Source: an uncultured Candidatus Saccharibacteria bacterium
Lineage (GTDB): Bacteria; Patescibacteriota; Saccharimonadia; CAILAD01; BJGX01
DNA length: 64,000 nt
Assembly: GCA_964390265.1 (NCBI GenBank)
Contig: CAYMHI010000002.1
Coordinates: 4,254-68,253, forward strand
Reading direction: 5' to 3'
Below, piece by piece: positions 8,962-56,808 of the stretch (position 1 is the stretch's first letter; every line of letters starts with the position of its first letter). The notes beneath the pieces were generated by a model, which saw only the letters and a list, made by a program, of their open reading frames with translations, did no database searches and was not told the DNA's origin. A program made the translations under genes and the position numbers.

Positions 8962-11900
8962 CTGTCACCGACCAGTGCCACGGCTCTGACTCTAAATTAA
9001 TTAGACCATAGTTAGCCGCGTTGGCTACTAACCAATTAAAACCCGGGCTTCCTCTGTCAATCGTATTACCACCTGTAGTAAAGTCAATAGCTAAACCTTT
9101 TTCGTGGTTAGATGTACCAGGTATTGCAGTAGGTACTCTACAGCTACTAGGTGAAGCAGTGAAAACATCTGGGCAGCCATTAGTAGTACGTAAACCAACT
9201 TGTTCTTCATACGATCTAAAACCACCGCCACCAAATAATATGCCAGCCGCCTGTGCGTCTTTTAGTAATTTATTAAGCTGACTTGCTAGTGATACGTTAA
9301 TATCTATTACTCCACCACCTGGTGCGGCAACATCACAAACCATTATCTTATTAGCAGGTACCTGACCTGGTCCATAAGTTTGGGCAACTCCGTTAACTAG
9401 GTTTGGGCCAGTACTAGTAGTTATGCCTGGTTCACTTGGGCAAGGGGTACCGCTTGTGTCGGCATCGGGGTCGGGTGCACCAATCGGGCCAGTTGGTCCG
9501 CTAGTGCCGCTATTAGCATAAATACTTGGGTTGTCGGCATCACTACTTAGGCTTGCCATTTGGTCTAATACTATATTGTAGTACACATACATACGGTACT
9601 TAACCGGTAAAGAATTAATATCTTTGGCGTCTTGTAGTATTTCTTTACAGTCATTAAATTTATTAAACTTACCCTCTGGATCATCGGTTCGTACTGCCGC
9701 AACGTTTCCGTTAGCATCTAATATTACACCCCTGTGCCACTCTGGGTGAAAGATAAACCATTGTACTGCATTAGCCCCGGGATACTTATCTCTAATACTA
9801 TCAGTTAATGTTCGATTACCAATTTCGCTCAAAGGCTTTGTTCTAATCTTAAAGTACTGGCTTGTAGGTATTTTTTGTTTAAAGCACGAATCATAATGTG
9901 TGAGTTTACGTTTTTCTGCCGGGCTACCATTAGCTTTTAGGTTTTCTATATAGGTAGCATTTTCTAGCATACTAATATTAAAATCACCCTGGGGTATGCC
10001 GGCCGTATCTATCTTGAGGTATTTGTCTCCGCTGGTATTGGCAGCAAAGGCCTTATTGTGCTGACCAAAGCTATAGTAAAGCGCTGAACTATGAATATTT
10101 GCGAGTGATTTTAATGGGTTAAGTAGTTGTTTAAACAATCCTGTTCCTGCTGTCATGGCGGTTTTGGGGGTAACGGTATTTTGATTAATAATACTTCGCG
10201 CCGATCGTATATTATCTAATGCAAACAGCCTATAGCCTACCCCCCTGTCCTTTTCTTCTTCTCTACGTAGGTTTTCAGAGTCGATAGCTACTTGATTGGC
10301 CTCGGTCTCCGTTAAAAACCTTCCACCTATTCTTAAAAAGTAATCATTCATTAATTGCCTAAACCCAGCGGCCTGACGATTATAATTATCTGGGCCAGAT
10401 TCTAAACCACTAACTGCAGTAACCGAGCCAGTTCTTACAAAAGAAGTAATAATCTCTTTGAGGCCAAAATCTGATGGGCTATTAAATACTCCCTCTGATT
10501 GAGCAACAATTTCTAGCTTGAGATCGCGATAGCCATCAGCCACCATTTTATTACCAGTATCAGCTAATGCATCGCCAAATATTCCACCCGGGGCGCTTAT
10601 AAAAACGCATCCATTTTTTAATTTCTGTATAGCCTCTGTGTCATATAAAGCAGTCTGTCTGGCGTTGTAAGACCTTGTAGAGGTGGCCTCTGGGTTTTGT
10701 TGTACTCCATTTAAGGAGTTATGTACGTCAATTGAGTATGCAGCACTACTAGCCCAATTATCTTGCTGAGCAATAGTAGAGTTGTTTTCTACATTGCTGA
10801 GTTGATCGGCCTTGCGGGTGTCGGCTAGAGTGGTAATTTTAATTGCGCCCCGTTCTGTACTAGCTAGTCTACTCTCTATCGCTTTTCTAGCGTTCTTAGC
10901 AGACTCCTCTTCTGTAGGGTCGTCACCTAAATCTAAAAATCCCATAATAAAAGGACAAAGTGTATTGGCTAAACCAGTGGTTACGACTCGCGATTGACCA
11001 TTATCTTTAGTGGGAATATTAATATAACTCTGTAATTGCATATCATAAGGACTTTTACCTGCGGCCATATCTTCATACATCTTGTTGATACCTGCAACCA
11101 AGTTAGACTTGTCGTCGCTGTAAGGTATTTGATCGTCTGGGTTGGCGGCGTTATATTCTCTTACGGCGTCTCTATAGCTATTTTGAATTATATCTATTTG
11201 GCCCTGATAATTAGAGAAATCAATTGAATCCTCTTTTTTTGGAGTTATACGGTTAAGAGTTTTATCATATACATACCTGTCTACCTCGGCTTTATTTCTT
11301 CTAAACTCCTCAGTATCTTTTTTGCTTGCATAATTGAGCCTAACGTCGGCTAACTGGTTAATTTCTCTAGTAACTGGCTGACGAGCCATCAAATTAAATA
11401 TTGGGTACTGTTGTTGAATGCAGTTTGTGGCTAGTATGTTATTGCTTAGATTGTCAATCTGAATTGTAGTGTCCGTCTTGGTGTTTACTACGTAATCTGG
11501 TACAAACCGTACTCTACCCTCACTATTAATTACTTGCTTTAGCTTGAGTTCATAGCCGCAACCTTTTTTATCAAGTGTTTGGTACTGAGCTTTCTTCCAA
11601 TCAATTTTTGAAAGACGCTCAAGGGTAGAGCCTGGCGGTATAGTTGTAGGTGCTGCAGCAATAGCAGTGTTGGGTCCGTGGTAATCTACCTCTCCAAGGC
11701 CAGGTAGAGCATCTATAGCATCTTTTAGAATATTTTTGCCAAAGGCCCTAGCGAGGTCATAGCCATAATCTCGCAATTTTTGATTAGTTAAGACTTTACC
11801 AATAATTTCGTCGGGGTTTTGCATGATATAAAAAAATGTAAATAGTGGTATAAGCGAAATAACCACAGTTACTAATAAAATTACCCCTACTCCGCGTATA

Positions 11901-38248: not shown

Positions 38249-38364
38249 TTGTTGTCCTTTCTCAAGGTGCCTCCGAGAGTATTTCTCTCAGCCAAGAAAT
38301 TCAATATCATTGAACATCTTGGTAGAGCCCCAATCCGCACTTTAACAGATTGGGGCAAATGAAG

Positions 38365-38607
38365 CTAGCAGCGATCAGCGTGCTTGAAGCAACCACCTAC
38401 GGCAGTGTCGCAACCGCCGGGGCACATTCGGCCAGCAGCTACTTCTTTGGCAATATATGCTTGATTATCTCTTCGTCGTTGTGCTGCTCGGGCGTGATCG
38501 CCTCGAGCTTCAGCAGCCTGCCACTCATAAGCTTCTGCTCTGAGCCTGGCTGCTCTAGCCCTGCCCTCCATTTCGGCAGCTCTGGCCTCTGCTTCGTAAT
38601 CGCGCAT
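38365..38607 (-). CDS. small Ala/Arg-rich protein with C-terminal Cys cluster
   Basis: 80 aa; very GC-rich codons; ends ...MCPGGCDTAVGGCFKHADRC. Confidence 0.4.
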   Translation of the reverse strand: MRDYEAEARAAEMEGRARAARLRAEAYEWQAAEARGDHARAAQRRRDNQAYIAKEVAAGRMCPGGCDTAVGGCFKHADRC

Positions 38608-38742
38608 CTTATCTCCTAGGTAGGTACAAATCTGGGTATCTCCCAGCCAAAACCCTCAAAAATGTTAAGTGCTTTGGTTGGCCCTGCACTCAGCTTCGAG
38701 TGCAGGGAAGAGCTTTTGGACATAGCCCTTTGGTTTTACTAT

Positions 38743-39039
38743 TCACCAGGGATCATCAGCCTTATCCCAAGCGGGATCATCGGGGTCCATCGAGTCAGAA
38801 CGGTCTCGTGGCTTTCTAGTCACCCTACCTCTCATCTCACTAGATTCTTTAATGCGCATCGCACTTTCGTGGTTATAGACTTCAAACTCTTGATCACATA
38901 CGGGACACTTCGCTATGAAAACGCCATCCGTCGTACTTGTTGTATCGTTTCTTTCGATCTCAAGCTCGCTATGGCATTTTGAACAAATTGAGCGCATGGG
39001 CCATACAAGATGATTGAAGCCTTGCCTAAGTATCTTCAC
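38743..39039 (-). CDS. small zinc-ribbon protein
   Basis: 98 aa, GTG start. CSKCHSE...CPVCDQ forms a CxxC...CxxC ribbon. Immediately preceded by hammerhead #2 and an AAGGAGA SD. Confidence 0.45.
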   Translation of the reverse strand: MKILRQGFNHLVWPMRSICSKCHSELEIERNDTTSTTDGVFIAKCPVCDQEFEVYNHESAMRIKESSEMRGRVTRKPRDRSDSMDPDDPAWDKADDPW

Positions 39040-39063
39040 TATTCTCCTTTGTGTATGTACGGG

Positions 39064-39118
39064 TCTGATTTCGTCGTTTTCGACTCTTCAGGGCAAGGGC
39101 ACACTTGCCGATCAGGAG
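39064..39118 (-). ncRNA. type III hammerhead ribozyme (#2)
   Basis: Minus-strand RNA CCUGA-U-C/GGCAAG-UGUGCC-CUUGCC-CUGAAGA-GUCG-AAAA-CGAC-GAAA-UCAGA. Helix I is a 6-bp hairpin; core CUGAAGA; helix II is 4 bp with an AAAA loop; core GAAA; helix III is open (CUGA/UCAG); cleavage site is U-C. Confidence 0.75.
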
Positions 39119-39152
39119 AGGTCTTAAAAGGACCTCCCTTAAACCTTCTGGT

Positions 39153-39341
39153 CTAACAGCGACCATAATCGTGGTCGTAACAAAGAGGTAGATTGGGGTA
39201 GCCACTATCAGCAGGGTAGTTACACCCCTTAACTGAGCATTTGCCATTGTGCTTCAGCTCGTGAACACGAGGATCGTAGAGCTCGTGTATGTTCTTTTTA
39301 TCCGATCCTGCTTTGTTGCTTTCGTCGTCGCCCTGCGCCAT
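39153..39341 (-). CDS. small Cys/His-rich protein
   Basis: 62 aa (…GKCSVKGCNYP…LCYDHDYGRC). SD AAGGAGAUAAG before the ATG; preceded by hammerhead #1. Confidence 0.45.
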   Translation of the reverse strand: MAQGDDESNKAGSDKKNIHELYDPRVHELKHNGKCSVKGCNYPADSGYPNLPLCYDHDYGRC

Positions 39342-39363
39342 CTTATCTCCTTGGTAGGTGCAT

Positions 39364-39419
39364 CTGACTTTCGTCCACCTTTCGGAAGACTCATCAGGGC
39401 CGTCGTTCGGCCGAGTCAG
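39364..39419 (-). ncRNA. type III hammerhead ribozyme (#1)
   Basis: Minus-strand RNA CUGAC-U-C/GGCCG-AACGA-CGGCC-CUGAUGA-GUCUUCC-GAAA-GGUGGAC-GAAA-GUCAG. All conserved core nucleotides present (CUGAUGA, GAAA, U16.1, C17); helices I and II are hairpins; helix III (CUGAC/GUCAG) is open. Confidence 0.8.
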
Positions 39420-39458
39420 GGGAGGTTTTGGTAGGACCTCCCGGAACCTGTTAAAGGA

Positions 39459-39731
39459 CTATTGCAGCTTCCGAATCACTTCCTCTACAGTAAGTCTCAC
39501 AATCTCTTCTAGTTGGGTTCTAGTAATTACTCTTGTCTCTTTGATCGGTTCTTCGTTCTTTGGCCCAAGCCAGATGTGGTCACGAGTATTGGTGCAGTTT
39601 TTACGCCCAGAAGTGTTGCAGGTACCACACCACGTAGGTGGGTATGAGTAGTCTGGGTCCATGCTCTCACGCACAGTGTACCATCCAGTGCGAACTTGCT
39701 CGGTGTGGGTAACGGTGTGATAGCCTTCCAT
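39459..39731 (-). CDS. small hypothetical protein with Cys motif
   Basis: 90 aa (…TWCGTCNTSGRKNC…). Leader GGCCGCACCUCGACAAAGGAGAGAAAUG. Confidence 0.4.
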   Translation of the reverse strand: MEGYHTVTHTEQVRTGWYTVRESMDPDYSYPPTWCGTCNTSGRKNCTNTRDHIWLGPKNEEPIKETRVITRTQLEEIVRLTVEEVIRKLQ

Positions 39732-40181
39732 TTCTCTCCTTTGTCGAGGTGCGGCCTGGGAATCTCCCAGCCGAAGCGTTCGTATCTATACAAGTGCTTG
39801 GGTTGGGAGGGAGCCGGAGTTATTTCTCGGCTCCCTCGGTGAATGTTTCGCCTCTTTCAGTCCTCGTCTAGAAGATCCAGGTCAAAACCAGGTACTCGAG
39901 GTAGCTGATGAAACAGCAGGCCAACAAGATCGAGGCGGTTACAATCTGGTGGCGAGTGATATGAGTCACGGGGCTCTCCTTTGTTGAGGGTCTGTTTCGA
40001 GAAGTTAGTAATCCTACTTCATTCGGCTTTCCTTGCGGTTACGCATATTCACACCCATCAGAGCATTACAGTTTGGGCAGGTGACTACTGCTTCTTCATA
40101 TGATACGAGGAAGGTGATAATGTCTTCCTCTCTGCTGTGACCAGGATCGGGATCGAATCGCCTGGTGCTGGTTGCAGGGCG

Positions 40182-40289
40182 TCACCGAATAGGGTCGTTG
40201 ACGTGATCTACCTCAATTTCTGAGAGGCAAGTTGGGCAAGTGTGTAGCTTTAGACACTTGCTTCCATTTCGTTGTTGGACGATTCTCAT
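40182..40289 (-). CDS. 35-aa zinc-ribbon micro-protein
   Basis: Hand-translated (below the track's length cutoff): MRIVQQRNGSKCLKLHTCPTCLSEIEVDHVNDPIR. SD AAGGAA; lies directly 3' of hammerhead #3. Confidence 0.35.
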   Translation of the reverse strand: MRIVQQRNGSKCLKLHTCPTCLSEIEVDHVNDPIR

Positions 40290-40311
40290 GTTGTTCCTTT
40301 TTAGGTACGGG

Positions 40312-40375
40312 TCTGATTTCGTCGTTTTCGACTCTTCAGGGCAAGTACACACTTGCCGATCAGGGGGAGGTTTTG
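40312..40375 (-). ncRNA. type III hammerhead ribozyme (#3)
   Basis: Near-identical to #2: CCCCUGA-U-C/GGCAAG-UGUGUA-CUUGCC-CUGAAGA-GUCG-AAAA-CGAC-GAAA-UCAGACC. Confidence 0.75.
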
Positions 40376-40402
40376 TAAGGACCTCCCAGAACCTTTCTCG
40401 AT

Positions 40403-41023
40403 CTACTCGAGACTAGCCACATCCTTCAGGATTCGCTGCAACACCCGTTCGGCCTTGAGGTCGATGTTGGGCTCTGCAGCAAAGACGGTGTAGCGGGGAT
40501 GGGCACTCCACACCTCTCGAGTTGCCAGCTCAATCTCGGCAGCCTCCTCGAGTGACTCCATGCGCTCAGCGTTACCTTGCTTGCCGTAGCTTGCAGGGTT
40601 GCCGATAGCCAGAGACTCGAGATGGTACACCGAGTGGTAGCGCTGCAGAGTAGCCTCGAGGTTGAGTCCGTAGGTAGCAGCAAACTTAGTTGCGCCACCA
40701 GGGGTGTAGGCCGCTCCATCGAGCATTCCTCGGTCGAGCACCAGCATCTTCTTGCCAGCCTCTTGTGCCTCGTGGACCCAGAAGCTTTCAAGCCGCTGCT
40801 GAAGGTCGAGTATGGCACCCTGGAAGTTGTACCTCCAGTGGTCGCTGTACTCTACCTCGCGCCCCGGAACCGGGTATCCCCCCGAGAGCAGCACGGTGGC
40901 TGCTTCGGGTACGAACGCTGCATTGGGCAACGCTGCTCTCAGGTACTCTAGCACGGTGCTTTTACCGGCGCAGGGGCCGCCAGTCAGCACCAGCATGGGG
41001 ATGGTAGCAAGGATGGTGGTCAT
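40403..41023 (-). CDS. P-loop nucleotide/polynucleotide kinase-like NTPase
   Basis: 206 aa with very GC3-rich codons. Walker A LVLTGGPCAGKSTVLEYL, resembling dephospho-CoA kinase and phage polynucleotide-kinase P-loops. Confidence 0.55.
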   Translation of the reverse strand: MTTILATIPMLVLTGGPCAGKSTVLEYLRAALPNAAFVPEAATVLLSGGYPVPGREVEYSDHWRYNFQGAILDLQQRLESFWVHEAQEAGKKMLVLDRGMLDGAAYTPGGATKFAATYGLNLEATLQRYHSVYHLESLAIGNPASYGKQGNAERMESLEEAAEIELATREVWSAHPRYTVFAAEPNIDLKAERVLQRILKDVASLE

Positions 41024-41311
41024 ATTTCCTCCAGGGTAATTCCGTCCGGACTATCCGGCTCGGCTACCTGGCAGTGATCACTTTTTTTGCCAGGGTACCA
41101 AGCCGGATTTTACCTAGAGTTTTTCACTTATCTTTGCCTAGCCTTTATTATGTGGTGGCGCTCGGTGGTATATCTAGTCAATTTATTTTGAGTCAAGGTT
41201 CTTTAACTTTCGCCCTGCCGTTACAGTTGTGGGCTCATCAGGACTGGTACTCACCAGTCGAGTTAGTGGGAGCTTTTGGCAGGAGCTCCCGAAAACCTGT
41301 GTGTGAGCTGG

Positions 41312-41563
41312 TTAGCTCCGGCGCCAGTCGATGTCTTTGCCGGGCTTGGCCAGCTTGTGGCCCTCCTCTCGTAGAGCCTCAGCGACCTGCTTCATCATCG
41401 GGCGGGTCATTTTCAGCTCTGGCTTGAGCTTCTTGCCGCAGCCCTTGCAGTTGCCAGCTTGGCCGAGCAGAGCCTTGCGGATGCCCTCGCGAGTAGCTCG
41501 ATCAGGCCGGTTGCGGTGGTTGCACTTGCTGCAGATGATGTAGTAGGGGTGCCAGACAGCCAT
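41312..41563 (-). CDS. small basic zinc-ribbon protein
   Basis: 83 aa; CSKCNHRN...CKGCGKK (CxxC...CxxC); GC-rich; first gene after the island promoter. Confidence 0.45.
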   Translation of the reverse strand: MAVWHPYYIICSKCNHRNRPDRATREGIRKALLGQAGNCKGCGKKLKPELKMTRPMMKQVAEALREEGHKLAKPGKDIDWRRS

Positions 41564-41608
41564 GTTATCTCCTTGGTGTCGAGGTGCGCCTTTGAGCGGT
41601 TGCTCTAG

Positions 41609-41637
41609 GCCGAAAACAATTTTACCTTAAATAACAC
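41609..41637 (-). promoter_or_regulatory. sigma70-like promoter for the minus-strand island operon
   Basis: On the minus strand: TTGACT, 17-nt spacer, TAAAAT. Confidence 0.4.
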
Positions 41638-43953: not shown

Positions 43954-44808
43954 ATGATAAGAGCCGCCCAAACCGACAAAAAACTAAAAGAATCAATTTT
44001 AGAATTGCTTAGTTTTTGTACTGAGCACGGAATTAGTCTTGATGAATCCGAAATATTGCAGCATCTACCAGTTAGAGCAAGCAGTGTAGGTGTAAACTCT
44101 CACTTAAGATGGCTAGTGGAACAAAAAAAGGTTACTAAGTTGAAAGATAATAGTTATGGAATTATTAAGGCAAAGTTTTCGGGTGCTCATAGACTTAGCG
44201 ATATTTACAAACAAATGCATTACTCTAGAAAAGTAAAAAATATAGTCAAGGTTGCCAAAATGGTGCCGTTTATAAAGGCAGTTCTAATTAGTAGCGATAG
44301 TATTTTTCACCCAATAGATAAAAATAAGTCACATCAAGAGTTAATAATTGTAACTCTTCCAAATAGAATCTATTTGGCCAAAGATATCATAAGATCTACG
44401 GCATATCGAACTAACAACAAGCAAGATAAAGCTAAATCTAAAAAAAATTCTCTCAAAGCTAGCTGCCAAGACATATATTACTCTACGGCTGGGCTTAGGT
44501 TTGTAGATAAAATGGGAAAATCTCAATTAGAAAAAGTGCTATGGGCAGCTTTTGCCAAGCCAATATACGGCAACTCAACATGGCAGAATTTGTTGCATAA
44601 CGATCCGTTTATATCTCGCCATCTTCCTAATAATCCCTATGTTCATAAGGTGGGCAAAATAGATGTGTCTACCAGTCGGTGGCTAGATAGTTTGGACAAT
44701 GCTCGTTATAGAGACTATCTACAAGAAATGTCAAAATTGAAAGATTTTAAAGACAGCTCACACTTTTTACGTATACGACCCGATGTGTTTATTGTTAAAG
44801 AAAATTAA
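43954..44808 (+). CDS. hypothetical protein
   Basis: 284-aa ORF with no motif recognised. Confidence 0.45.
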   Translation: MIRAAQTDKKLKESILELLSFCTEHGISLDESEILQHLPVRASSVGVNSHLRWLVEQKKVTKLKDNSYGIIKAKFSGAHRLSDIYKQMHYSRKVKNIVKVAKMVPFIKAVLISSDSIFHPIDKNKSHQELIIVTLPNRIYLAKDIIRSTAYRTNNKQDKAKSKKNSLKASCQDIYYSTAGLRFVDKMGKSQLEKVLWAAFAKPIYGNSTWQNLLHNDPFISRHLPNNPYVHKVGKIDVSTSRWLDSLDNARYRDYLQEMSKLKDFKDSSHFLRIRPDVFIVKEN

Positions 44809-44829
44809 TAATTTTATTGTCAAAAGGTA

Positions 44830-44858
44830 TTGACATCATTGTGCTTATGTGATACTAT
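44830..44858 (+). promoter_or_regulatory. consensus sigma70 promoter driving the GC-rich non-coding transcript
   Basis: TTGACA (44830-44835), 17-nt spacer, TACTAT (44853-44858). Confidence 0.5.
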
Positions 44859-44865
44859 GTATTTC

Positions 44866-45792
44866 TACCTAGGCAAAAGCCAATGGTTGCACCACAACAA
44901 AAAGGTCTTGGGTGCTCCGAAAGGAGCAGCACGACTCGTCTTGGAGAAATCCCTCTCGTAAAGAGAAAAAGACGAAGCGTGTATTGGTCTACAGAGCTTA
45001 AAGGCACTGTATATCAATCCCTCACAAACCTGATACTGCTGCAAGGAGGCAAGGCGCCGTAGTCCCTCGAGCCCCGCGCGCAACGCGGAGCTGGGATCGC
45101 CGCCTTGGCTCGGAGCCGCCATCGGGCGTAGTCTCCGGGCCACGAGACCCTGCAGTAGTTAAGGGCACCGTTACCCAGGCCGGGAGCGGTGCAGCGGGGC
45201 CGGTGGTGAGTCGGGGCACAGCTCGACACCACCACCGGCCCCTTCGAAATCCTCGATTCAAAGAACGCTAGGCACCGACTGAGGTCCGCGACCTCTGCCT
45301 GGTATCGAGGTAGCCACACGGCTGAGTTCATCTCGCGAAAACCTGTAATGAAAGGGGAACCAGTGGTTCCACCCGGCAACTAAGCCCCTCTTAGTAGGGG
45401 TACGGGCTTGCCCGAACCACATCCGCCCTCGCTGAGACCGAAAGGAACAAGGCGTGACACGAGAAGATTTACCCTAGCCTTGACCGAGAGAGTAAGTGGG
45501 CGAAAAACAATCCCAGCTCTCGTGATAGGCGCCTCCGTCCCGTTCTTAGGTGCTAGGTGTTGCACCACACCTAAGAACACGCGGCCAAGCTGCCAGAGAC
45601 CACCCCGGTGCAAGACCGGAGTAGAAGTGAGCGAGCGTTGTGCGCAAGATTGTTTTTGACTCCCCCTCAGGCAACTAGAGCCGAGGTGAGCGAGCCCAAA
45701 ACCATGACAGCCACAGCGCCAAACAGACTCTACCTACGTCTTAGCGGCTTTGGTCGCACCCCACACCCTCCACCAGGAGGGTGTTATTCGTT
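44866..45792 (+). ncRNA. candidate large (~0.9 kb) GC-rich structured non-coding RNA, unassigned family
   Basis: Bounded by a consensus promoter and an intrinsic terminator (CACCCUCCACCAGGAGGGUG + UUAUUCGUU at 45764-45792). No coherent ORF in any frame, only short overlapping ORFs on both strands. Many strong hairpins (e.g. GUUCUUAGGUG...CACCUAAGAAC, GGCCGGUGGUG...CACCACCGGCC). GC far above the genome background. Confidence 0.4.
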
Positions 45793-45811
45793 ATATAGAC
45801 ATAAATAATGC

Positions 45812-45841
45812 TTGACACAGCACTTACCGCACTAGTAGAAT
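45812..45841 (+). promoter_or_regulatory. groESL promoter
   Basis: TTGACA (45812-45817), 18-nt spacer, TAGAAT (45836-45841). Confidence 0.5.
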
Positions 45842-45846
45842 AACTA

Positions 45847-45873
45847 TTAGCACTCCACCGCTATGAGTGCTAA
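45847..45873 (+). promoter_or_regulatory. CIRCE element (HrcA operator)
   Basis: TTAGCACTC-N9-GAGTGCTAA, a perfect inverted repeat, between the promoter and groES. Confidence 0.85.
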
Positions 45874-45978
45874 TGCTTATCTAAAAAACTAATGTCATAT
45901 CGAGCGTAGTTGAGAGATCTAAGAAAAGATTTCTCCAGTCCAGTCGAAATGACAAGTAATTTGTAAAAAGGAGAACGT

Positions 45979-47893
<1,915 letters not shown>

Positions 47894-47961
47894 TTTCGCA
47901 CTAAGCGACAATTAATTGACTTAAATAAAAAGACCTCTTACAACGGAGGTCTTTTTAGTAA

Positions 47962-47990
47962 TTGACAAAGAGTATATAGCATGCTATACT
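47962..47990 (+). promoter_or_regulatory. consensus sigma70 promoter for the small GC-rich gene
   Basis: TTGACA, 17-nt spacer, TATACT. Lies just after the groEL terminator hairpin (AAGACCUCUUACAACGGAGGUCUUUUU). Confidence 0.5.
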
Positions 47991-48035
47991 ACTATTTGTT
48001 CCATAAGGAATTTCCCGTTGATCACTAGGAGCGAT

Positions 48036-48293
48036 ATGAGCGACATGTTTGCTTTGACCGTCGGCAACGACGGTGTGTTCCACGCCGGTAACGCCAGTGA
48101 TGACCTGGTACCCGGCGAGGAAACCACGCCAGTCTCCGCACCTCCGCGCGGTCTCGATCCCGAAGACAACGAGTTGCGCTCGCCCGTCTTCGATCCGCAT
48201 CGCTGCCGAGCGTTGGCGGAATGCGACAGTTGGGACCTCCACGGCCCCGATCGCGTCGAGTCGAGTGGGCGAAAGCCCAGAGATCGCAAGTAG
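48036..48293 (+). CDS. small acidic hypothetical protein encoded with high-GC codons
   Basis: 85 aa from ATG 48036 (MSDMFALTVGNDGVFHAGN...). Strong GC3 bias (GAC, GTC, GGC, AAC, TTC). SD AGGAG. Followed by terminator GAGGCUUGCC...GGCAAGCCUC + UUU (48318-48356). Confidence 0.45.
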   Translation: MSDMFALTVGNDGVFHAGNASDDLVPGEETTPVSAPPRGLDPEDNELRSPVFDPHRCRALAECDSWDLHGPDRVESSGRKPRDRK

Positions 48294-48435
48294 AAAACAG
48301 CAACAAACGCCCTGCCCACCCCGAGGCTTGCCCGTCAAAAGGCAAGCCTCTTTACTAATAAATCATTCTAGACACATAGTTTATAAATTGCTACAATTAC
48401 TGGGCATTTGTACCCCTCAATAAGAAAGGCGAGAG

Positions 48436-48888
48436 ATGACAGCGGTAGAGAGATTACGAGGTGGGCTTGAAAGAGAGGCTGCGCTCGAGGAAGCGTCGCG
48501 CAAAAGCATACCATGCCTAAAGCCAGGCATATTGGTATTAGCCGATCTAAGCGAACTACGCCATAAGGCAGACCGCCAAGATCTGCAGGTTCCGGTAGTG
48601 TTGATTCACTCCGTGGAGTGCAGTTGTTTCTGGAAAGCAGCCTGCACAACCATTAGGTCAACCAACCCAATCAATGGGCGAAAAATGCCAAGACTGGATT
48701 GCACAGGTGATGGTGTTCTTCCACAGCTGTATCTGCGTGCAAGTAAAGTCATCGAGCTACCCGATTTTGCGGTAGTTAGGCACTTGGCCACACTCACGCC
48801 AAATGATGCCGAGAGGGTAATTCGTACATACAATTATTACGGTGCCATTGCCAGTAGGCTGCGAAAAGTGGCCAACGGTATAAGCTAA
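48436..48888 (+). CDS. hypothetical protein
   Basis: 150-aa ORF with no motif recognised. Confidence 0.4.
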   Translation: MTAVERLRGGLEREAALEEASRKSIPCLKPGILVLADLSELRHKADRQDLQVPVVLIHSVECSCFWKAACTTIRSTNPINGRKMPRLDCTGDGVLPQLYLRASKVIELPDFAVVRHLATLTPNDAERVIRTYNYYGAIASRLRKVANGIS

Positions 48889-49020
48889 CTCACTCAGCCA
48901 ACAGCCCTTATTGTCTACAACAGTAAGGGTTTTTAAATTACCAACTAGACACCCTACAGGTATGTTTGTTACAATAAATAGCGTTTTGTACCTTATAGGC
49001 GAGAGAGGCGAGGTAAGTTA

Positions 49021-49815
49021 ATGCAAACTAAGCTAAGAGATCACACCCAGGCCGATATGGCCTTTAGAGCCGGTAGAACAGATAGGGCAATAAAGTACTA
49101 CCAAGCGTGCCTAGATGTGTATCGAGTGAATGGTGATGTATATGGCCTGGCTGGCTGCACTCATTCTCTTGGAGTGGCCCTGGTATACGAAAACTGCCCC
49201 AAGGAGGGCATGGAGGCTCTTCTGCAGGCTCGTATAGCCTGGACTGGCCAAAACCGCATCAACGAGGTGGGCAGGGCCGAAAGAGATATTGGAGTAGCCC
49301 ATATGCTGTTTAGGCAGTATTTTGAAGCCAACGAGTGGCTAGAACGTAGTCGCCAAACTCTTGGTTTTAGTAAGGCTACCGAGAGAGGCCTCACCGAGGC
49401 AAAGAGGGGTAGACTATACAGCCTAGATGGCGAGTTCGATATGGTTGATGGCTGTTTTGATGAGGCATTTACCCTTGTAGCCCAAGCACAGTCGCCAGAG
49501 GTAGTTTGTGTGGTACATATAGACAACGCTTTTGCCTGTATGGAGCGTTTGCAGTGGGGACATATGCACAACCATCTGGAGGCCGCTTGGCAGATAATTC
49601 ATTGCCTGGGCGATCAACTAATACGGCAAATGTTGCAACTAACCACTCTCAATGCGCGCTGGTTAATGAACAACTCGGAGTGGGTGCACGCCCAGAAGTT
49701 ATTTAGAGAGAAGTTTGTTGAACCTAGCAGAGATCTCTCGCCTGGAATGGTTGAGGTATTGAAGCGTGAGGTTGGTGCCGATGAACTTGCCGAACTACTA
49801 CTAGTAGATTTCTAG
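49021..49815 (+). CDS. hypothetical protein (possibly TPR-like helical repeats)
   Basis: 264-aa ORF, helical with Tyr/Ala/Leu repeats; no firm motif. Confidence 0.45.
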   Translation: MQTKLRDHTQADMAFRAGRTDRAIKYYQACLDVYRVNGDVYGLAGCTHSLGVALVYENCPKEGMEALLQARIAWTGQNRINEVGRAERDIGVAHMLFRQYFEANEWLERSRQTLGFSKATERGLTEAKRGRLYSLDGEFDMVDGCFDEAFTLVAQAQSPEVVCVVHIDNAFACMERLQWGHMHNHLEAAWQIIHCLGDQLIRQMLQLTTLNARWLMNNSEWVHAQKLFREKFVEPSRDLSPGMVEVLKREVGADELAELLLVDF

Positions 49816-49972: not shown

Positions 49973-50001
49973 TTGACAAACACCTCATAGTTTGATACAA
50001 T
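49973..50001 (+). promoter_or_regulatory. consensus sigma70 promoter with a ~230-nt AT-rich leader before the high-GC gene
   Basis: TTGACA, 17-nt spacer, TACAAT; the start codon is ~235 nt downstream. Confidence 0.45.
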
Positions 50002-50239
50002 ACTTGGCGATACGGTGACCAGGGTAAAACCAATTGTCGTGTCGACACTTTGACAAAGCAAGGATCATATATAAGTAAACAACAATCATGTTGACTGTTG
50101 TGCTGCATAGACCGGTTTACAAATAAATGTTAGACCGGCGCATGCAGTACAACAGCAGTAAACAAAAAAGATAATACGCTTTTTTGTATGGTAGCCCAAA
50201 CCAATTAAGCTACCGTTGCCCCAGGAGGGGTATATCGAC

Positions 50240-51820
50240 ATGACCAGCAACGACACCCGTACCAGCGCGCAGAAGCGCCAGGACACCATCAACGAGCGCA
50301 AGGCCGAGGCCGAGCGCCTGGGCATGAGCTACACCGACTACGTCAAGTCCCTCAAGGCCCAGAAGCGCAAGCCCGGCAAGAAGAAGACCGGCACGGCTCC
50401 GGCCGCGCAGGAAGACAGCGTCGAGGAGACCCGAAGGGCCATCCGAGGTGCCAAGGGCCAGACCGGTTCGACCGTGGCCGAGCAGGCAACGGCTGCGCTC
50501 ACGCACATCCACGACGACGACAGCATGAGCTGGAAGGACGACGCCCACAAGGGCGAGGCCATCCTGAAGCTCATGTCCGGCGACGAAGAGGTGCAGCTGG
50601 CGGGTCTGAGGATGTACGAGACCAGCCTGCGATACACGGAGGCGGCACGCATCAAGGACGAGCTCATCGAGGGTGGCATCGACGATGACGTCGCCGAAAC
50701 CATTCGCTTCAAGATGTGCAACCCGCACGCCGAAGTTCGCGAGTGGGTCAGCGAGGTAGTGTTGCCCAAGATCAAGTCGGGTGAATGGAGCACGGTCCCC
50801 AAGAAGGACTTTGCTACCACCAACCCGACGAGTGGCCCCAGCCAGAGCCCCGCTGAGATCCGTGAGGAGCTCAACAAGGCACTCGAGCAGATGCGGAACC
50901 ACCCGTTCCGAAGCGCCATCGAGGCGCTCATCGTCGAGCAGGCTGAGGCCAAGGGCGGCAAGCACGCGAAGTGGGTCATCCAGGTTCTCAATGACGAGAG
51001 CGACCCGTTGCATCGTGCCAAGTCCATCCGGGCAGCAAAAGGTGTGTTCTTGAGCATTGGTCACCAGATTGCCGAACCGTTGGTGCCGCTCGACATCGCT
51101 CAGCTCGAGGCCGACCGCAAGGTCATCCTGGGCGACGTGAACGCGAGCAAGCTGACGGGCTGGGTGGCTGAGAAGATCAGCGACCCGGGCGATCTGAAGC
51201 ACATGCAGAACCGTGCTTCCCTGAGGAAGGCCCTTGCCATCGCCCATGGAGTGCTGGGCAGGTACATCGAGACCGCCGCAGTGGTGGCCAAGGTACTCGA
51301 GACCATCGACCCGTGGTTCAGCTACGGCTGGGATGCGGAACTCGATGCGATCGAGCAGCGCGATGCCGAGCGCACAGCCAACCAGGCGAATCCGTACGTG
51401 CCCTGGAAGGTCGAGCTCATCGACGAAGCGCTGGCGGCTTACAAGGCCGACCTCGAAGACGGCGGGAGCGCGCTGCTTGCTCTGTGTGGCAACACCAACA
51501 AGCTGCACGGTCTGCTCAAGGCGATCGATGTGTTTCGACGCGTCGTGACCGAAACCGGACAGACCCTGTTCGAGAGCCACGAGTTGCAGATGCAGTTCGA
51601 GGCGCTTCTCGGTGGCGACAAGGCCAAGGCGAGCAACTCCAAGCCGAGTGATGGCGCGCCCACCCGGCGTTCCAGCACCTCCGAGGAGAAGCGAGCCAAG
51701 GCCGAGCGCAACCGGAAGAACCGGGAAGCCCGGGCCGAGGCCGACAAGGCCAAGGCCGCCGCCAACCCCGAGCGCAAGCGCGGGTACGAGCAGGTCGGGG
51801 GCCGCAAGAAGAAGAGTTAA
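50240..51820 (+). CDS. high-GC hypothetical protein with Lys/Arg-rich termini (horizontally acquired?)
   Basis: 526 aa from ATG 50240 (MTSNDTRTSAQKRQ...). SD CAGGAGGGG. Pronounced GC3 codon bias across the gene, unlike the flanking genes. Followed by hairpins at 51830-51955. The antisense 456-aa ORF is rejected. Confidence 0.55.
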   Translation: MTSNDTRTSAQKRQDTINERKAEAERLGMSYTDYVKSLKAQKRKPGKKKTGTAPAAQEDSVEETRRAIRGAKGQTGSTVAEQATAALTHIHDDDSMSWKDDAHKGEAILKLMSGDEEVQLAGLRMYETSLRYTEAARIKDELIEGGIDDDVAETIRFKMCNPHAEVREWVSEVVLPKIKSGEWSTVPKKDFATTNPTSGPSQSPAEIREELNKALEQMRNHPFRSAIEALIVEQAEAKGGKHAKWVIQVLNDESDPLHRAKSIRAAKGVFLSIGHQIAEPLVPLDIAQLEADRKVILGDVNASKLTGWVAEKISDPGDLKHMQNRASLRKALAIAHGVLGRYIETAAVVAKVLETIDPWFSYGWDAELDAIEQRDAERTANQANPYVPWKVELIDEALAAYKADLEDGGSALLALCGNTNKLHGLLKAIDVFRRVVTETGQTLFESHELQMQFEALLGGDKAKASNSKPSDGAPTRRSSTSEEKRAKAERNRKNREARAEADKAKAAANPERKRGYEQVGGRKKKS

Positions 51821-52202
51821 CTTCTTCCGCCGGTATCAGGAACCGGCGACAACCAACGCCGATTAACTTCGGCAAAAAACCTGAATTTCGTCCCCCACGT
51901 AGGGGCCGGTAGGAGATCGATTTCTGATCTGTGGACATGGTCCTTAACTACCGGCCCCTGGGGGCTGCAACAAGAAAGAGAATATATATGATATCTTGCT
52001 TTGTCTCTTTCCCAGAAAACCTATTATTTGGCTGAGATTCTGAAGCTAGTTCAGAATGACGAATTAGGCTTTGTGAGAAAGAACACCAAAACACCACCAT
52101 ACATTAGGTGGTGTTTTGTATATTAAACAATTATAATACCACTTGTAATTGTACCTACCACCACTATAGCTCACAGGCCGAGCCGAAAGGGGTACACAAG
52201 CT

Positions 52203-55786: not shown

Positions 55787-55895
55787 GCATCTTGATTAAT
55801 TTAATTTGCACTATTGCTGTGCAACAGAGAGATTATACCCTATTATTCGGCAAAATAAAAGAAACACATTAGTGATATTACAATGCAAAAAGTAC

Positions 55896-55924
55896 TTGAC
55901 AATAATGCTAGTGTTAGCTATAAT
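55896..55924 (+). promoter_or_regulatory. perfect consensus sigma70 promoter
   Basis: TTGACA (55896-55901), 17-nt spacer, TATAAT (55919-55924). Confidence 0.55.
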
Positions 55925-55930
55925 ACTACT

Positions 55931-56779
55931 CATGTTCATTTTCATTACGAATAGAACTGAAACTTCTAGGTTGAACCGCTGACCTCCTCAGCGTGTCTCA
56001 CCCAAGGAGCCGGTCGCCCATCGCCCGCCCGGCCGGCTCCTAAAATCTCCTCTTGTACTGTGCAATGTAGTGCCAACGCGAAGCGCCAAGGCGTAGCGAG
56101 GCGCGATCTTCACCTTTTGCAAAGAGAGGTGGCATGGTCAAGGAGAACCCCAATCAGCCAGGGGTCAATTGCGGGTAACAAAGATTCTGCGGTTGTTAAA
56201 TTACACCACCGCGGTGCCAACCAAAAAGGGCTGACTAAATCACTTTTTGGAATCTTTAACAGAGCTTGATAACTATCGCTACTACTGGAGACGCTGCGGC
56301 GTCGTGGAAGGTAGTGGATGATAAGCTCGCAGCCTGCCGGCTGAGACTCTGCTCTCCTAGCAAGAGAGTTAAAGAAGGCAAACTGTCCAGGCAGTATAAA
56401 AAACAGGTGAGGCATGAGCCAAATCTGTTTGGCGCCCCATCTTGGGCGTATAAGAGTTTGGTGTAGCTCAATAGATACGAGGGTGCGAAGAGCCTGGACT
56501 CTTCAAGCCTTCACCAGTTCTTTAAAGATCGGGGTTCGGTCGGCTCCTCCTCTCGCCGGGACCCGCCACCGACCGAACCCCACTTCGCCAGTCAGCGGCC
56601 TCAAGCTGGCGATCCCGAGAACATCGGGAGGGGCGCTCCGCATAGGAGCTACAACCACCCCGCCATGAGGCACCCTGGCCATCGTCCAGGGTTACTAAGA
56701 GAAGATACAACGTCCACCGGTAGGGAGGGCCACCAAGGCCCTCCCTACCACGACCACCCACCAATTGGTGGGTTTTTTT
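55931..56779 (+). ncRNA. second candidate ~0.85-kb GC-rich structured non-coding transcript
   Basis: Runs from the consensus promoter to the terminator CCCACCAAUUGGUGGG + UUUUUUU (56756-56779). Only short overlapping ORFs in all frames. Many GC-rich hairpins (GGAGCCGG...CCGGCUCC, GGUAGGGAGGGCC...GGCCCUCCCUACC, GGGGUUCGGUCGG...CCGACCGAACCCC). Confidence 0.35.
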
Positions 56780-56808
56780 ATTACTGCTATAATATTAAGT
56801 CAACAACA

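What the first reader, a model, noticed from the sequence alone, without database searches (positions are those of the whole stretch)
44830..45792. Candidate ~0.9-kb GC-rich 'ornate' non-coding RNA immediately upstream of groESL
A consensus promoter (TTGACA-17-TACTAT) and a clean intrinsic terminator (CACCCUCC-ACC-AGGAGGGUG + U-tract) bracket about 925 nt with no ORF longer than ~120 aa in any frame; the short ORFs overlap on both strands. The region has a very high density of long perfect hairpins (11-bp stems such as GUUCUUAGGUG/CACCUAAGAAC and GGCCGGUGGUG/CACCACCGGCC) and GC well above the genome. It carries none of the RNase P, tmRNA, SRP or 6S hallmarks that were looked for. Large promoter-to-terminator structured RNAs of this size (GOLLD, ROOL, OLE and HEARO classes) are often prophage- or tRNA-associated. 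This one could be a member of such a class, a new one, or a decayed high-GC gene.
Basis: seen in the sequence. Interest (0 to 1): 0.65.

Follow-up and report, generated by a model that had tools for sequence, protein, structure and literature searches.

The report
New large structured RNA in Saccharibacteria
A roughly 0.9-kb non-coding, heavily folded RNA gene with its own promoter and terminator sits just upstream of groESL in a Saccharibacteria (CPR) genome. Relatives keep it, its 3' half is far better conserved than neutral sites, and it matches no known RNA family, so it is most likely a new class of large bacterial RNA of unknown function.

Summary
A sigma-70 promoter (44830-44858) and an intrinsic terminator (45763-45793) bracket about 930 nt. 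This stretch has no coding signal, has 58% GC against 43% for the window, and folds far better than shuffled sequence (z = -9.7).

It is a separate transcription unit, because groES keeps its own promoter and CIRCE operator.

Syntenic RNAs of 0.5-1.1 kb, each with promoter and terminator, occur in related Saccharibacteria.
- Against the closest relative, the 3' 417 nt is 96% identical, while four-fold sites are 75% identical.
- Within the clade, helices show compensatory changes: 25 double-changed pairs against about 10 in shuffles.

Rfam 15 gives nothing, which covers GOLLD, ROOL, OLE, HEARO, raiA, RNase P, tmRNA and introns. ARAGORN, motif checks and a literature search also gave nothing.

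In sister lineages the RNA is enclosed by a covarying 5'/3' closing helix plus a 3' hairpin. The same frame surrounds a nearby mRNA for an orphan protein with very high GC3.

Verdict: a genuine new family of large structured ncRNA. Its function is unknown.

The parts
44830..44858 (+). Sigma-70 promoter of the RNA gene: TTGACA, 17 nt, TACTAT, with TG before the -10. The transcription start site (TSS) is inferred near 44865.
   Evidence: The equivalent strong promoters (TTGACA/TTGACT, 17 nt, TAnnAT, often with TG) sit in front of every relative's RNA.
44862..44904 (+). Conserved 5' leader: a small GGC-AAAA-GCC hairpin, the near-palindrome GGUUGCACC, and an A-rich linker ending in GGUCUUG.
   Evidence: 96% identical to L105. 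85-88% identical to L082/L083, in which everything else up to the core is missing. The GGUCUUGRG motif is shared with L089, L088, L102 and L106.
44905..45345 (+). Variable GC-rich 5' domain, an expansion region of long hairpins that includes GGGGCCGGUGGUG/CACCACCGGCCCC at 45196-45242.
   Evidence: Fold z = -9.1. Only 72.7% identical to L105, with indels of 1, 3, 4, 5, 39 and 41 nt, close to the neutral rate of 75% at four-fold sites. Absent from L082/L083. The window's MFE pairs are kept in L105 no better than in slid controls. L105's own version still folds with z = -5.7.
45346..45762 (+). Conserved 3' core of the RNA, the likely functional part.
   Evidence: 96.4% identical to L105/L108, against 75% at four-fold sites, 68% in the next intergenic region and 79% in the neighbouring gene. 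Fold z = -5.0. Covariation with L082/L083. Covariance model R1 of 45349-45537 finds L102 at the expected place, E = 5e-5.
45350..45414 (+). Core motif block: GAAAGGGG, hairpin, CCACCCGG, N5, AGCC, then the hairpins CCCCU...AGGGG and CGGG-CUUG-CCCG.
   Evidence: Nearly invariant in the window, L105, L082 and L083. Aligned to L102 by model R1. Similar motifs appear in L085/L086 and L003/L004/L095.
45477..45530 (+). Long hairpin with a conserved base (UAGCC...GGCGCC) and a distal stem that differs in sequence but stays paired in each relative.
   Evidence: helices 7-8, 7 pairs with changes on both sides.
45542..45578 (+). The 11-bp perfect hairpin GUUCUUAGGUG/CACCUAAGAAC, a lineage-variable insert.
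   Evidence: Missing from L105/L108 as a 38-nt gap. Present with compensatory changes in L082/L083 (helix 10).
45581..45757 (+). 3' domain closed by a long-range helix of about 19 bp, 45581-45600 with 45738-45757.
   Evidence: Predicted in every single-sequence fold. Changes on both sides at 3 pairs, plus G-U pairs, in clade 1 (helix 11). Analogous helices in L085 (GAGCCGCGGAAAG/CUUUCCGCGGCUC) and L003 (GAGACCGCGGAG/CUCCGCGGUCUC).
45763..45793 (+). Intrinsic terminator of the RNA gene.
   Evidence: Terminators at the same place in all relatives.
45812..45873 (+). Context, not part of the RNA: the groES promoter (TTGACA, 18 nt, TAGAAT) and the CIRCE operator TTAGCACTC-N9-GAGTGCTAA (45847-45873).
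   Evidence: Conserved in relatives. This shows that groESL is a separate, HrcA-type regulated unit.
43954..44808 (+). Context: a 284-aa lineage-specific protein with an N-terminal winged helix. Its gene lies next to the RNA gene in both observed gene orders.
   Evidence: No Pfam, NCBIfam or PDB assignment. AlphaFold2 is confident only for residues about 10-80.
49973..52118 (+). Related transcript frame elsewhere in the window: promoter, leader hairpin, closing-helix strands GACAAAGCAAGG (50052-50063) and CUUGCUUUGUC (51995-52005), a 3' hairpin and a terminator. It encloses a 526-aa ORF (50240-51820) with GC3 = 0.85.
   Evidence: The same frame surrounds the ncRNA in L085, L086, L089, L102, L106, L098 and L100. 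It also surrounds high-GC ORFs in L082, L003, L004 and L106.

Best explanation
This is a stand-alone gene for a large structured non-coding RNA that probably acts in trans. It belongs to a previously undescribed family restricted to one lineage of Saccharibacteria.

Shown:
- The gene runs from a strong sigma-70 promoter to an intrinsic terminator, independently of groESL.
- It does not encode protein.
- It has two parts. The 3' core of about 420 nt (45346-45762) is under strong purifying selection and has helices that covary. The GC-rich 5' domain of about 440 nt (44905-45345) changes at about the neutral rate, gains and loses whole hairpins, and is absent in some relatives.

Inferred:
- The core is the working part, either a scaffold for a ribonucleoprotein or a catalytic or ligand-binding fold.
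- The 5' domain is a tolerated expansion that mainly has to remain a stable, compact fold.
- In sister lineages the RNA is closed by a 5'/3' helix (UUGACGAAGUAAA with UUUACUUCGUC) followed by a conserved 3' hairpin. This most likely protects or processes the transcript ends, in the way an RNase III stem does, so that the RNA accumulates. The window's lineage has lost this frame at this locus but keeps it on a nearby mRNA.

The cellular function is not known. The only recurring gene linkage is with the adjacent winged-helix protein gene.
For: Transcription unit:
- Promoter and terminator sit on the + strand.
- groES has its own promoter and CIRCE.

Non-coding:
- No period-3 signal: P3 = 0.01, p = 0.96, against 22.8 and 10.5 for coding controls.
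- None of 15 family members shows the strong periodicity of the coding controls: P3 is at most 0.99, and two short members reach nominal p of about 0.02-0.03.
- Indels are not multiples of three.
- No credible protein homologue.

Structure:
- Fold z = -9.7, -9.1 and -5.0.
- In clade 1, 89% of cells are paired against 41-48% in slid controls. 25 pairs changed on both sides against 9.7 +/- 2.4 in shuffles (0/500) and 2-7 in slid controls.
- G-U pairs outnumber A-C mismatches 28 to 12, which favours the + strand.

Selection:
- The core is 96.4% identical to L105. Four-fold sites are 75%, the next intergenic region 68%, and the neighbouring gene 79% at nucleotide level and 72% at amino-acid level.

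Family:
- Syntenic promoter-RNA-terminator units occur in L082-L087, L003, L004, L095, L089, L102, L105, L106 and L108.
- Model R1 links clade 1 to L102 (E = 5e-5).
- nhmmer links L102 to L106, L089, L088 and L085.

Frame:
- The closing helix and 3' hairpin appear in independent single-sequence folds and covary.

Not a known RNA:
-.
- No description found in the literature.
Against: - There is no expression data.
- Covariation rests on few sequences: 3-4 per clade, with structures derived from the same alignments. No R-scape-grade test was possible.
- Homology across clades is firm only for clade 1 to L102 and onward by nhmmer.
- Model R2 of the 3' domain, and sequence profiles, did not link the other clades.
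- L003-type, L098 and L100 RNAs are joined to the family by synteny, short motifs or the shared frame only.
- Conserved pairing in the 5' domain is not supported statistically.
- The RNA is absent from the same locus in some related genomes (L002, L090, L096), so it is dispensable or has moved.
- Nothing here indicates what it binds or does.
Confidence: 0.75

Rival explanations
1. A strongly diverged copy of a known RNA, above all RNase P RNA. CPR bacteria are known to carry RNase P RNAs with expanded or missing helices that fall below Rfam thresholds.
For: Lui et al. 2021 (PMC8172020) found 10 of 35 CPR RNase P RNAs only after lowering the bit threshold to 5. From memory, E. coli M1 RNA contains CCACCCGGAGCAAGGCC, GUGAGCG and CACGACAGAAC in the same order as the motifs CCACCCGG..AGCC, GGUGAGCG and CACAACGCCCAGAA seen here. 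No RNase P RNA was found elsewhere in the 64-kb window.
Against: - No RNase P model hit at E<=10, even when only 551 or 546 nt were searched.
- No member carries the P4 signatures GGAAAGUC or ACAGAA-N-GGCUUA.
- The ACAGAA-like motif lies inside a domain closed by a 19-bp helix, which does not fit the RNase P architecture.
- Sequence conservation between clades is almost nil, whereas the conserved regions of RNase P are universal.
- The RNA is missing from the syntenic site in close relatives.
- A 64-kb window is expected to lack most housekeeping RNAs anyway.
Confidence: 0.04
2. A decayed high-GC protein gene, or a piece of foreign high-GC DNA carried passively. This reading applies at least to the 5' 440 nt.
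For: - This genome does take up high-GC units. The unit at 47964-48350 is absent from the 99%-GroEL relatives.
- The ORF at 50240-51820 has GC3 = 0.85.
- The 5' domain has 65% GC, diverges at the neutral rate (72.7% against 75%) and shows no better pair conservation than slid controls.
- L082/L083 do without it.
Against: For the whole RNA:
- No period-3 signal.
- No protein homologue.
- The core is conserved at 96%.

For the 5' domain:
- It lies inside the transcript, between a conserved leader and the core.
- Both the window's and L105's versions fold far better than shuffles (z = -9.1 and -5.7), which neutral drift would erode.
- Several hairpins keep pairing through A-U to G-C and U-A to U-G changes.
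- Long 5' domains are also present in L085, L102, L106 and L100.
Confidence: 0.12
3. A cis-acting leader or long 5' UTR, for example a thermosensor that controls groESL.
For: The RNA lies directly upstream of groES, on the same strand, in most members. The terminator's U-tract is interrupted (UUAUUCGUU), so some read-through is conceivable.
Against: - A terminator is followed by a complete groES promoter with CIRCE in all members.
- In L098/L099 and L100/L101 the RNA is separated from groES by the winged-helix gene.
- Relatives with the same groESL genes lack the RNA altogether.
- 0.5-1.1 kb is far beyond any known heat-shock leader.
Confidence: 0.04
4. A mobile or cassette-like DNA element. 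On this reading the closing helix is a pair of terminal inverted repeats, and the GC-rich interior is cargo.
For: The same end sequences, UUGAC(G/A)AAG... and ...CUU(C/U)GUC(G/U)CUUUYCCAGA, flank very different interiors at two loci: an ncRNA at one and high-GC ORFs of 245-526 aa at the other. Inverted repeats recognised by one enzyme would also appear to covary.
Against: - The conserved unit extends beyond the repeats to a promoter and leader hairpin upstream and a hairpin and terminator downstream.
- Both loci are syntenic across diverged genomes rather than scattered.
- No transposase or integrase lies nearby.
- G-U pairs occur in the helix.
- The window's own RNA lacks the repeats yet is conserved.
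- Viral-contig scans gave only chance matches or matches inside coding sequence.
Confidence: 0.05

Closest known systems
OLE RNA (Rfam RF01071)
   Same: Large (about 600 nt), highly structured and lineage-restricted. It is a stand-alone ncRNA of unknown biochemical function, encoded next to a lineage-specific partner-protein gene. Its conserved core carries variable peripheral stems.
   Different: No sequence or structure match. OLE occurs in extremophilic Firmicutes and lies inside an operon next to membrane-protein genes (oapA). Here the RNA has its own promoter and terminator, occurs in CPR bacteria, and its neighbour is a soluble-looking winged-helix protein with no shown interaction.
GOLLD (RF01998) and ROOL (RF03087) RNAs
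   Same: RNAs of 0.6-0.8 kb running from promoter to terminator, with many helices, large variable regions and no known function. A near-palindromic loop in the leader (GGUUGCACC, or GGUGCACC in L082) could mediate self-association, as in their homo-oligomers (PMC12286853). That possibility was not tested.
   Different: No covariance-model match. There is no prophage or tRNA neighbourhood. The taxon differs. Size varies much more within the family (0.5-1.1 kb).
Bacterial RNase P RNA (RF00010/RF00011), including the diverged CPR forms
   Same: A structured RNA with helix expansions and losses in CPR genomes (PMC8172020). A few short motifs resemble E. coli M1 RNA in order; this comparison is from memory.
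   Different: The P4 and CR-I/CR-V signatures are absent from all members. No model hit. The domain topology differs. The RNA is not universal even among close relatives.
RNase III processing stems that flank rRNA precursors and some phage mRNAs
   Same: In sister lineages, and on the nearby mRNA, a helix of 11-16 bp pairs sequences just inside the 5' and 3' ends of the transcript and is followed by a 3' hairpin. This geometry resembles stems that are cleaved to give end-protected stable RNAs.
   Different: Cleavage has not been shown. The helix is shorter than classical substrates of about 20 bp. The same conserved sequence is used on an ncRNA and on an mRNA. The window's RNA itself lacks the stem.

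Membership tests
GOLLD (RF01998) | Match to the family covariance model (conserved multi-stem core) | tested here: not met
   cmscan of Rfam 15 gave no hit at gathering score. No hit at E<=10 on 44700-49500, or on the shorter relatives L082 and L003.
GOLLD / ROOL | Frequent location in prophages or next to tRNA genes | tested here: not met
   The neighbours are TrmB, PGM, a winged-helix protein, groESL and a TPR protein. The nearest tRNA is more than 9 kb away. Viral-contig scans gave only chance matches.
ROOL (RF03087) | Match to the family covariance model | tested here: not met
   no hit.
OLE (RF01071) | Match to the family covariance model, with adjacent oapA-type membrane-protein genes | tested here: not met
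   No hit. No such neighbour genes.
HEARO / IscB omega-RNA (RF02033) | Model match and an adjacent IscB/HNH nuclease ORF | tested here: not met
   No hit. No nuclease ORF within or beside the RNA.
raiA motif RNA (RF03072) | Match to the family covariance model | tested here: not met
   no hit.
RNase P RNA (RF00010, RF00011, RF00373) | Match to a family model, even below gathering score | tested here: not met
   No RNase P hit at E<=10 in searches of 4.8 kb, 551 nt and 546 nt. Scores below about 15 bits could not be displayed, so a very weak match is not excluded.
RNase P RNA | Universally conserved P4 strands: CR-I GGAAAGUC(C) and CR-V ACAGAA-N-GGCUUA | tested here: not met
   A regular-expression scan of all 15 family members found no CR-I, no CR-V and no GGCUUA. 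The consensus strings were taken from memory.
RNase P RNA | Exactly one essential copy per genome, with no other RNase P RNA present | not testable with these tools
   Only a 64-kb window and loci of about 10 kb were available. Whole genomes could not be scanned.
tmRNA (RF00023) | tRNA-like domain with a tag reading frame | tested here: not met
   ARAGORN found nothing in 44700-45900. No Rfam hit.
Group I / group II introns (RF00028, RF00029, RF02001 and related) | Model match to the catalytic core; interruption of a host gene | tested here: not met
   No hits. The RNA lies between genes and has its own promoter and terminator.
6S RNA / SRP RNA | Match to the family covariance model | tested here: not met
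   no hit.
New family proposed here (groES-upstream large RNA of Saccharibacteria) | Own promoter and terminator; core motifs GAAAGGRG-hairpin-CCRCCCGR-N5-AGCC with the following hairpins; 3' domain closed by a long-range helix | tested here: met
   For the window. The features are shared with L105/L108, L082 and L083, and with L102 by model R1 (E = 5e-5). For L003-type, L098 and L100 RNAs, membership rests on synteny, motifs or the frame only: inconclusive.

The most novel reading that the evidence does not exclude
The RNA is one of two GC-rich cargo transcripts that this Saccharibacteria lineage produces in a shared, end-paired stabilising frame. The other is an mRNA for an orphan protein with basic termini and actinobacterium-like codon usage (GC3 = 0.85 in a genome whose own genes have GC3 of about 0.36). 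On this reading, the two form a lineage-specific ribonucleoprotein, or they are products aimed at the high-GC host on which these epibionts live. The RNA core would then be a new functional fold, a scaffold or a ribozyme, rather than a housekeeping RNA.
Probability: 0.12. Interest if true: 0.85.

Novelty: new variant of a known kind. Interest (0 to 1): 0.62.

Why it matters
Only a handful of bacterial RNAs longer than 500 nt with a conserved structure are known, and most have turned out to be ribozymes, RNP scaffolds or self-assembling cages. I found no report of one specific to the Candidate Phyla Radiation, whose reduced genomes leave little room for non-essential DNA. A 0.5-1.1-kb RNA gene behind a consensus-like promoter, with a core that is conserved more strongly than the protein gene next to it, therefore suggests an important function specific to this lineage.

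It gives a defined target for RNA-seq, covariation modelling, cryo-EM and pull-downs.

The shared 5'/3' frame with an mRNA of host-like codon usage also raises a testable question. How do these epibionts stabilise particular transcripts, and do they direct them somewhere?

Tried and rejected
Only 3 were useful.
- MAFFT alignment across clades of the 3' domain gave no consensus structure.
- nhmmer profiles of each clade did not find the other clades.
- Covariance model R2 of the 3' domain found nothing significant in other clades.
- Model R1 found only L102/L103 outside clade 1, and nothing in 0.93 Mb of other groEL neighbourhoods.
- The test of conserved pairing in the 5' domain, window MFE pairs mapped onto L105, was negative.
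- Protein route for the decayed-gene idea: Pfam found nothing for the 121-aa antisense ORF. A full HMMER scan gave one hit (E = 4e-5) to a fibronectin-repeat protein, judged spurious.
- The winged-helix neighbour has no Pfam hit above cut-off, no NCBIfam or PDB match. Its AlphaFold2 model had pLDDT 57, too poor for a fold search.
- Viral-contig scans: the core pattern gave 10 chance hits, rejected by R1. The frame pattern gave 28 hits, 26 of which (24 from one sample) lie in one conserved, apparently coding region of a family of phage contigs of mostly 20-31 kb, with no hairpin frame around them.
- Literature searches for a described Saccharibacteria or CPR large RNA found nothing.
- The idea that UUGACGAAG is a hammerhead core or an internal -35 box was considered and dropped, because the spacing and the partner elements do not fit. 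This is inference from the sequences.
Full report
**What the sequence shows**

The window comes from a member of the Saccharibacteria (TM7, Candidate Phyla Radiation). Its GroEL is 88-100% identical to proteins that their sources label Saccharibacteria or Patescibacteria.

Between a 284-aa gene (43954-44808) and groES (45979-46248) lie 1,170 nt. A consensus scan finds two promoters and one terminator on the + strand:
- TTGACA-17-TACTAT at 44830-44858, with TG before the -10.
- A 9-bp GC-rich stem with a U-rich tail at 45763-45793.
- TTGACA-18-TAGAAT at 45812-45841.

The second promoter is followed by a perfect CIRCE inverted repeat (TTAGCACTC-N9-GAGTGCTAA, 45847-45873). groESL is therefore an ordinary HrcA-type unit. 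The roughly 930 nt from about 44865 to 45790 form a separate transcription unit.

The longest ORF in any frame is 121 aa, on the antisense strand. GC is 0.58, and up to 0.68 locally, against 0.43 for the window.

The RNA folds much better than dinucleotide-preserving shuffles. The z-score is -9.7 for the whole RNA, -9.1 for 44905-45345 and -5.0 for 45346-45762.

**It is not coding**

The GC indicator has no three-base periodicity in the RNA (power 0.01; 96% of shuffles are higher). groEL gives 10.5, the neighbouring 284-aa gene 1.2 (p = 0.002), and a high-GC ORF elsewhere in the window 22.8. None of the 15 related RNAs collected shows the strong periodicity of the coding controls. The highest P3 is 0.99, and two short members reach nominal p of about 0.02-0.03. 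Their longest sense ORFs are mostly under 85 aa.

The 121-aa antisense ORF has no Pfam match. In a full HMMER scan of 1.8 billion representatives it has one marginal hit (E = 4e-5) to a fibronectin-type repeat protein, matched four times over. I regard that as compositional.

Indels between the window and its closest relative are 1, 1, 1, 1, 3, 4, 5, 38, 39 and 41 nt long.

**It is not a known RNA**

Rfam 15 (4,227 models) gives only tRNAs in the window at gathering score. It gives nothing but noise at E<=10 for 44700-49500. It gives nothing for the shorter homologues in L082 and L003 when these are searched alone with lax filters, and nothing in seven related loci. ARAGORN finds no tmRNA. Full-text searches found no description of such an RNA in Saccharibacteria or the CPR.

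One paper shows that CPR RNase P RNAs can be so diverged that they are found only at a bit threshold of 5 (PMC8172020), so I took that rival seriously. None of the 15 family members contains the P4 signatures GGAAAGUC or ACAGAA-N-GGCUUA (the consensus strings are from memory). The ACAGAA-like motif lies inside a domain closed by a 19-bp helix. The clades share almost no sequence. The RNA is also missing from the syntenic site in close relatives. I rate RNase P at about 4%.

**Relatives**

I recovered syntenic loci by looking up contigs that encode GroEL or the 284-aa protein of relatives. All of the following carry a strong promoter, 0.5-1.1 kb of ORF-poor GC-enriched sequence and a terminator:
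- L105/L108, 819 nt
- L082, 513 nt
- L083/L084, 508 nt
- L085/L087 and L086, 844-871 nt
- L003, L004 and L095, 521-545 nt
- L089, 647 nt
- L088, partial
- L102/L103, 794 nt
- L106, 841 nt

In all of these, groES follows behind its own promoter and CIRCE.

In L098/L099 (727 nt) and L100/L101 (about 1,100 nt) the RNA lies on the other side of the winged-helix gene, and still next to it. L002, L090-L093 and L096/L097 have the flanking genes but only 150-210 nt between them.

Sequence similarity between clades is weak:
- nhmmer links the window to L082/L083 (E = 1e-7 to 1e-10).
- nhmmer links L102 to L106, L089, L088 and L085.
- Clade profiles do not find each other.
- Covariance model R1, built from 45349-45537 and its three clade-1 homologues, finds L102 at exactly the expected position (22 bits, E = 5e-5). 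It finds nothing else in 77 kb of related loci, 0.93 Mb of other groEL neighbourhoods, or 90 kb of viral contigs.
- Model R2, covering the 3' domain, links no further clade.

The family is therefore firm for clade 1 plus the L102, L106, L089 and L085 group. L003-type, L098 and L100 RNAs are joined by synteny, short ordered motifs or the shared end frame only.

**Selection**

L105/L108 is the most informative relative. Its GroEL is 99% identical to the window's, but four-fold degenerate sites are only 75% identical. The intergenic region after the terminator is 68% identical. The neighbouring gene is 79% identical at nucleotide level and 72% at amino-acid level.

Against that yardstick, the 5' leader is 96% identical and the 3' core (45346-45792) is 96.4% identical over 412 aligned nt. 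The 5' GC-rich domain is 72.7% identical, with many indels.

The core is thus under purifying selection comparable to first and second codon positions of groEL. The domain that makes the region look "ornate" drifts at about the neutral rate. The showy 11-bp hairpin at 45542-45578 is simply absent from L105.

**Structure conservation**

I aligned the window core with L082 and L083. RNAalifold predicts 102 pairs, and 25 of them have changes on both sides with pairing kept. The counting tool gives:
- 89% of cells paired, against 41-48% when the 3' partners are slid by 1-3 columns.
- 25 double-changed pairs, against 9.7 +/- 2.4 in 500 shuffles (none reached 25) and 2-7 in slid versions.

Three caveats apply. 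There are only three sequences. The structure was derived from the same alignment. In at least one helix the window row is misaligned, so the counts are approximate.

The clearest cases can be read directly from the sequences:
- The hairpin at 45477-45530 keeps a conserved base (UAGCC...GGCGCC). Its distal stem is GACCGAGAGAG/CUCUCGUGAU in the window, CGUAAGU/ACUUAC in L082 and GUAUGAGUC/GACUCGUAU in L083.
- The long-range helix 45581-45600 with 45738-45757 recurs as GCCGCCGGAGAC/GUCUUCGGCGGC in L082, GAGCCGCGGAAAG/CUUUCCGCGGCUC in L085 and GAGACCGCGGAG/CUCCGCGGUCUC in L003.

In the clade-1 helices, G-U pairs (28) outnumber A-C mismatches (12). This favours an RNA read from the + strand.

For the 5' domain the evidence is mixed. 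The window's MFE pairs are kept in L105 no better than in slid controls (16 of 51 changed pairs stay canonical, against 15-26). On the other hand, L105's own 5' domain still folds with z = -5.7, and several hairpins are visibly maintained through A-U to G-C and U-A to U-G changes.

**The end frame and a second framed transcript**

In L085, L086, L089, L102, L106, L098 and L100, independent single-sequence folds all recover the same outer architecture:
- a 5' leader hairpin;
- a closing helix of 11-16 bp between ...UUGA(C/U)GAAG(U/A/C)AA... near the 5' end and its complement near the 3' end;
- a conserved 3' hairpin (CUUUUCCAGA...UCUG.AGAAG);
- a terminator.

The helix covaries. Examples are GACGAAGUAAA/UUUACUUCGUC, GAUGAAGUAAAA/UUUUACUUCAUC and GACGAAGCAAAUCUC/GAGAUUUGCUUCGUC, and some members have G-U pairs.

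The window's RNA and the other clade-1 and L003-type RNAs lack this frame. The same frame does occur 4 kb downstream in the window (49973-52118). There it encloses structured UTRs and a 526-aa ORF (50240-51820) with a strong Shine-Dalgarno sequence and GC at codon positions 1/2/3 of 0.63/0.44/0.85. groEL has GC3 of 0.36. That protein is an orphan, with one partial homologue among 5.8 billion proteins.

Orthologous framed units with other high-GC ORFs (245 to about 326 aa) occur in L003, L004, L095, L082, L083, L106 and L002.

I read the frame as a transcript-end module, pairing the ends and possibly an RNase III-type processing site, that is used for at least two abundant transcripts. This is inference. 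The alternative, that these are terminal inverted repeats of a mobile cassette, is unlikely for four reasons. The conserved unit includes the promoter and terminator outside the repeats. Both loci are syntenic. No transposase is near. G-U pairs occur in the helix.

**Context and function**

The only recurrent linkage is with the 284-aa protein gene, which neighbours the RNA in both gene orders. This protein is lineage-specific, with seven homologues in the large database. It has no Pfam hit above cut-off and no NCBIfam or PDB match. Only its N-terminal winged helix is modelled with confidence. It also occurs without the RNA. A partnership is therefore possible but unsupported.

No prophage, tRNA, nuclease or reverse-transcriptase genes are nearby.

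What can be said is as follows. The promoter is close to consensus. The core is conserved more strongly than the adjacent protein gene. The RNA tolerates large peripheral expansions and deletions. In this it behaves like rRNA, RNase P RNA and the large orphan RNAs (OLE, GOLLD, ROOL), where a compact functional core carries variable stems.

My best reading, at 0.75 that it is a genuine functional ncRNA of a new family, is a stable trans-acting RNA whose 3' core is the functional fold. Whether it is a scaffold, a ribozyme or something else cannot be decided here.

**Verdict**

It is a new family within the known kind "large structured bacterial ncRNA of unknown function".

The main weaknesses are the small number of sequences, the lack of expression data and the absence of any functional clue.

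Noticed in passing
window 49973-52118: A second transcript carries the same promoter, leader, closing-helix, 3'-hairpin and terminator frame as sister-lineage copies of the RNA. It encloses a 526-aa orphan ORF (50240-51820) with GC3 = 0.85 in a genome whose groEL has GC3 = 0.36. Orthologous frames in L082, L003, L004, L095, L106 and L002 hold other high-GC ORFs of 245 to about 326 aa.
   Followed up: partly
window 47964-48350: A small high-GC unit directly after the groEL terminator: a promoter-like TTGACA, an 85-91-aa ORF (48018/48036-48293) and a terminator hairpin. It is absent from the 99%-GroEL relatives L104/L105, where the gap is 173 nt instead of 543, so it is a recent insertion. No period-3 signal was detectable at this length.
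   Followed up: partly
L002 4100-4626; L090 2975-3500; L091-L093; L089 3091-3495; possibly L102 2348-2812: A different candidate ncRNA of about 430-530 nt, with its own promoter and terminator, lies between the phosphoglucomutase gene and the winged-helix gene in several relatives. It is conserved among them (nhmmer E down to 1e-161) and has no Rfam hit at gathering score. It is not present in the window.
   Followed up: partly
window 55886-56615: An intergenic stretch of about 0.75 kb, GC-enriched at 56418-56790, is conserved with L082 19905-20662 and L084 (nhmmer E = 1e-48 and 1e-41), although proteins of these genomes are only about 50% identical. Rfam gives only noise at E<=10. It is possibly another unannotated structured RNA.
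   Followed up: partly
window 45812-45873: A textbook groES promoter followed by a perfect CIRCE operator (TTAGCACTC-N9-GAGTGCTAA). It is conserved in most of the Saccharibacteria relatives examined, while L002/L090-L093 and L089 carry degenerate variants. This implies HrcA-type heat-shock control in this CPR lineage.
   Followed up: no
window 40348-41628 and 38250-40400: A GC-rich island covers an AAA_28-family gene (40403-41023, minus strand, clear period-3 signal) and adjoins more than 2 kb with no ORF of at least 110 aa. Parts of this stretch are conserved with L082/L083. Not examined further.
   Followed up: no
window 44883-44894; L082 about 9063-9072: The conserved 5' leader of the RNA contains a near-palindrome, GGUUGCACC in the window and GGUGCACC in L082/L083. 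It could form a self-complementary kissing contact between two RNA molecules. This was not tested.
   Followed up: no
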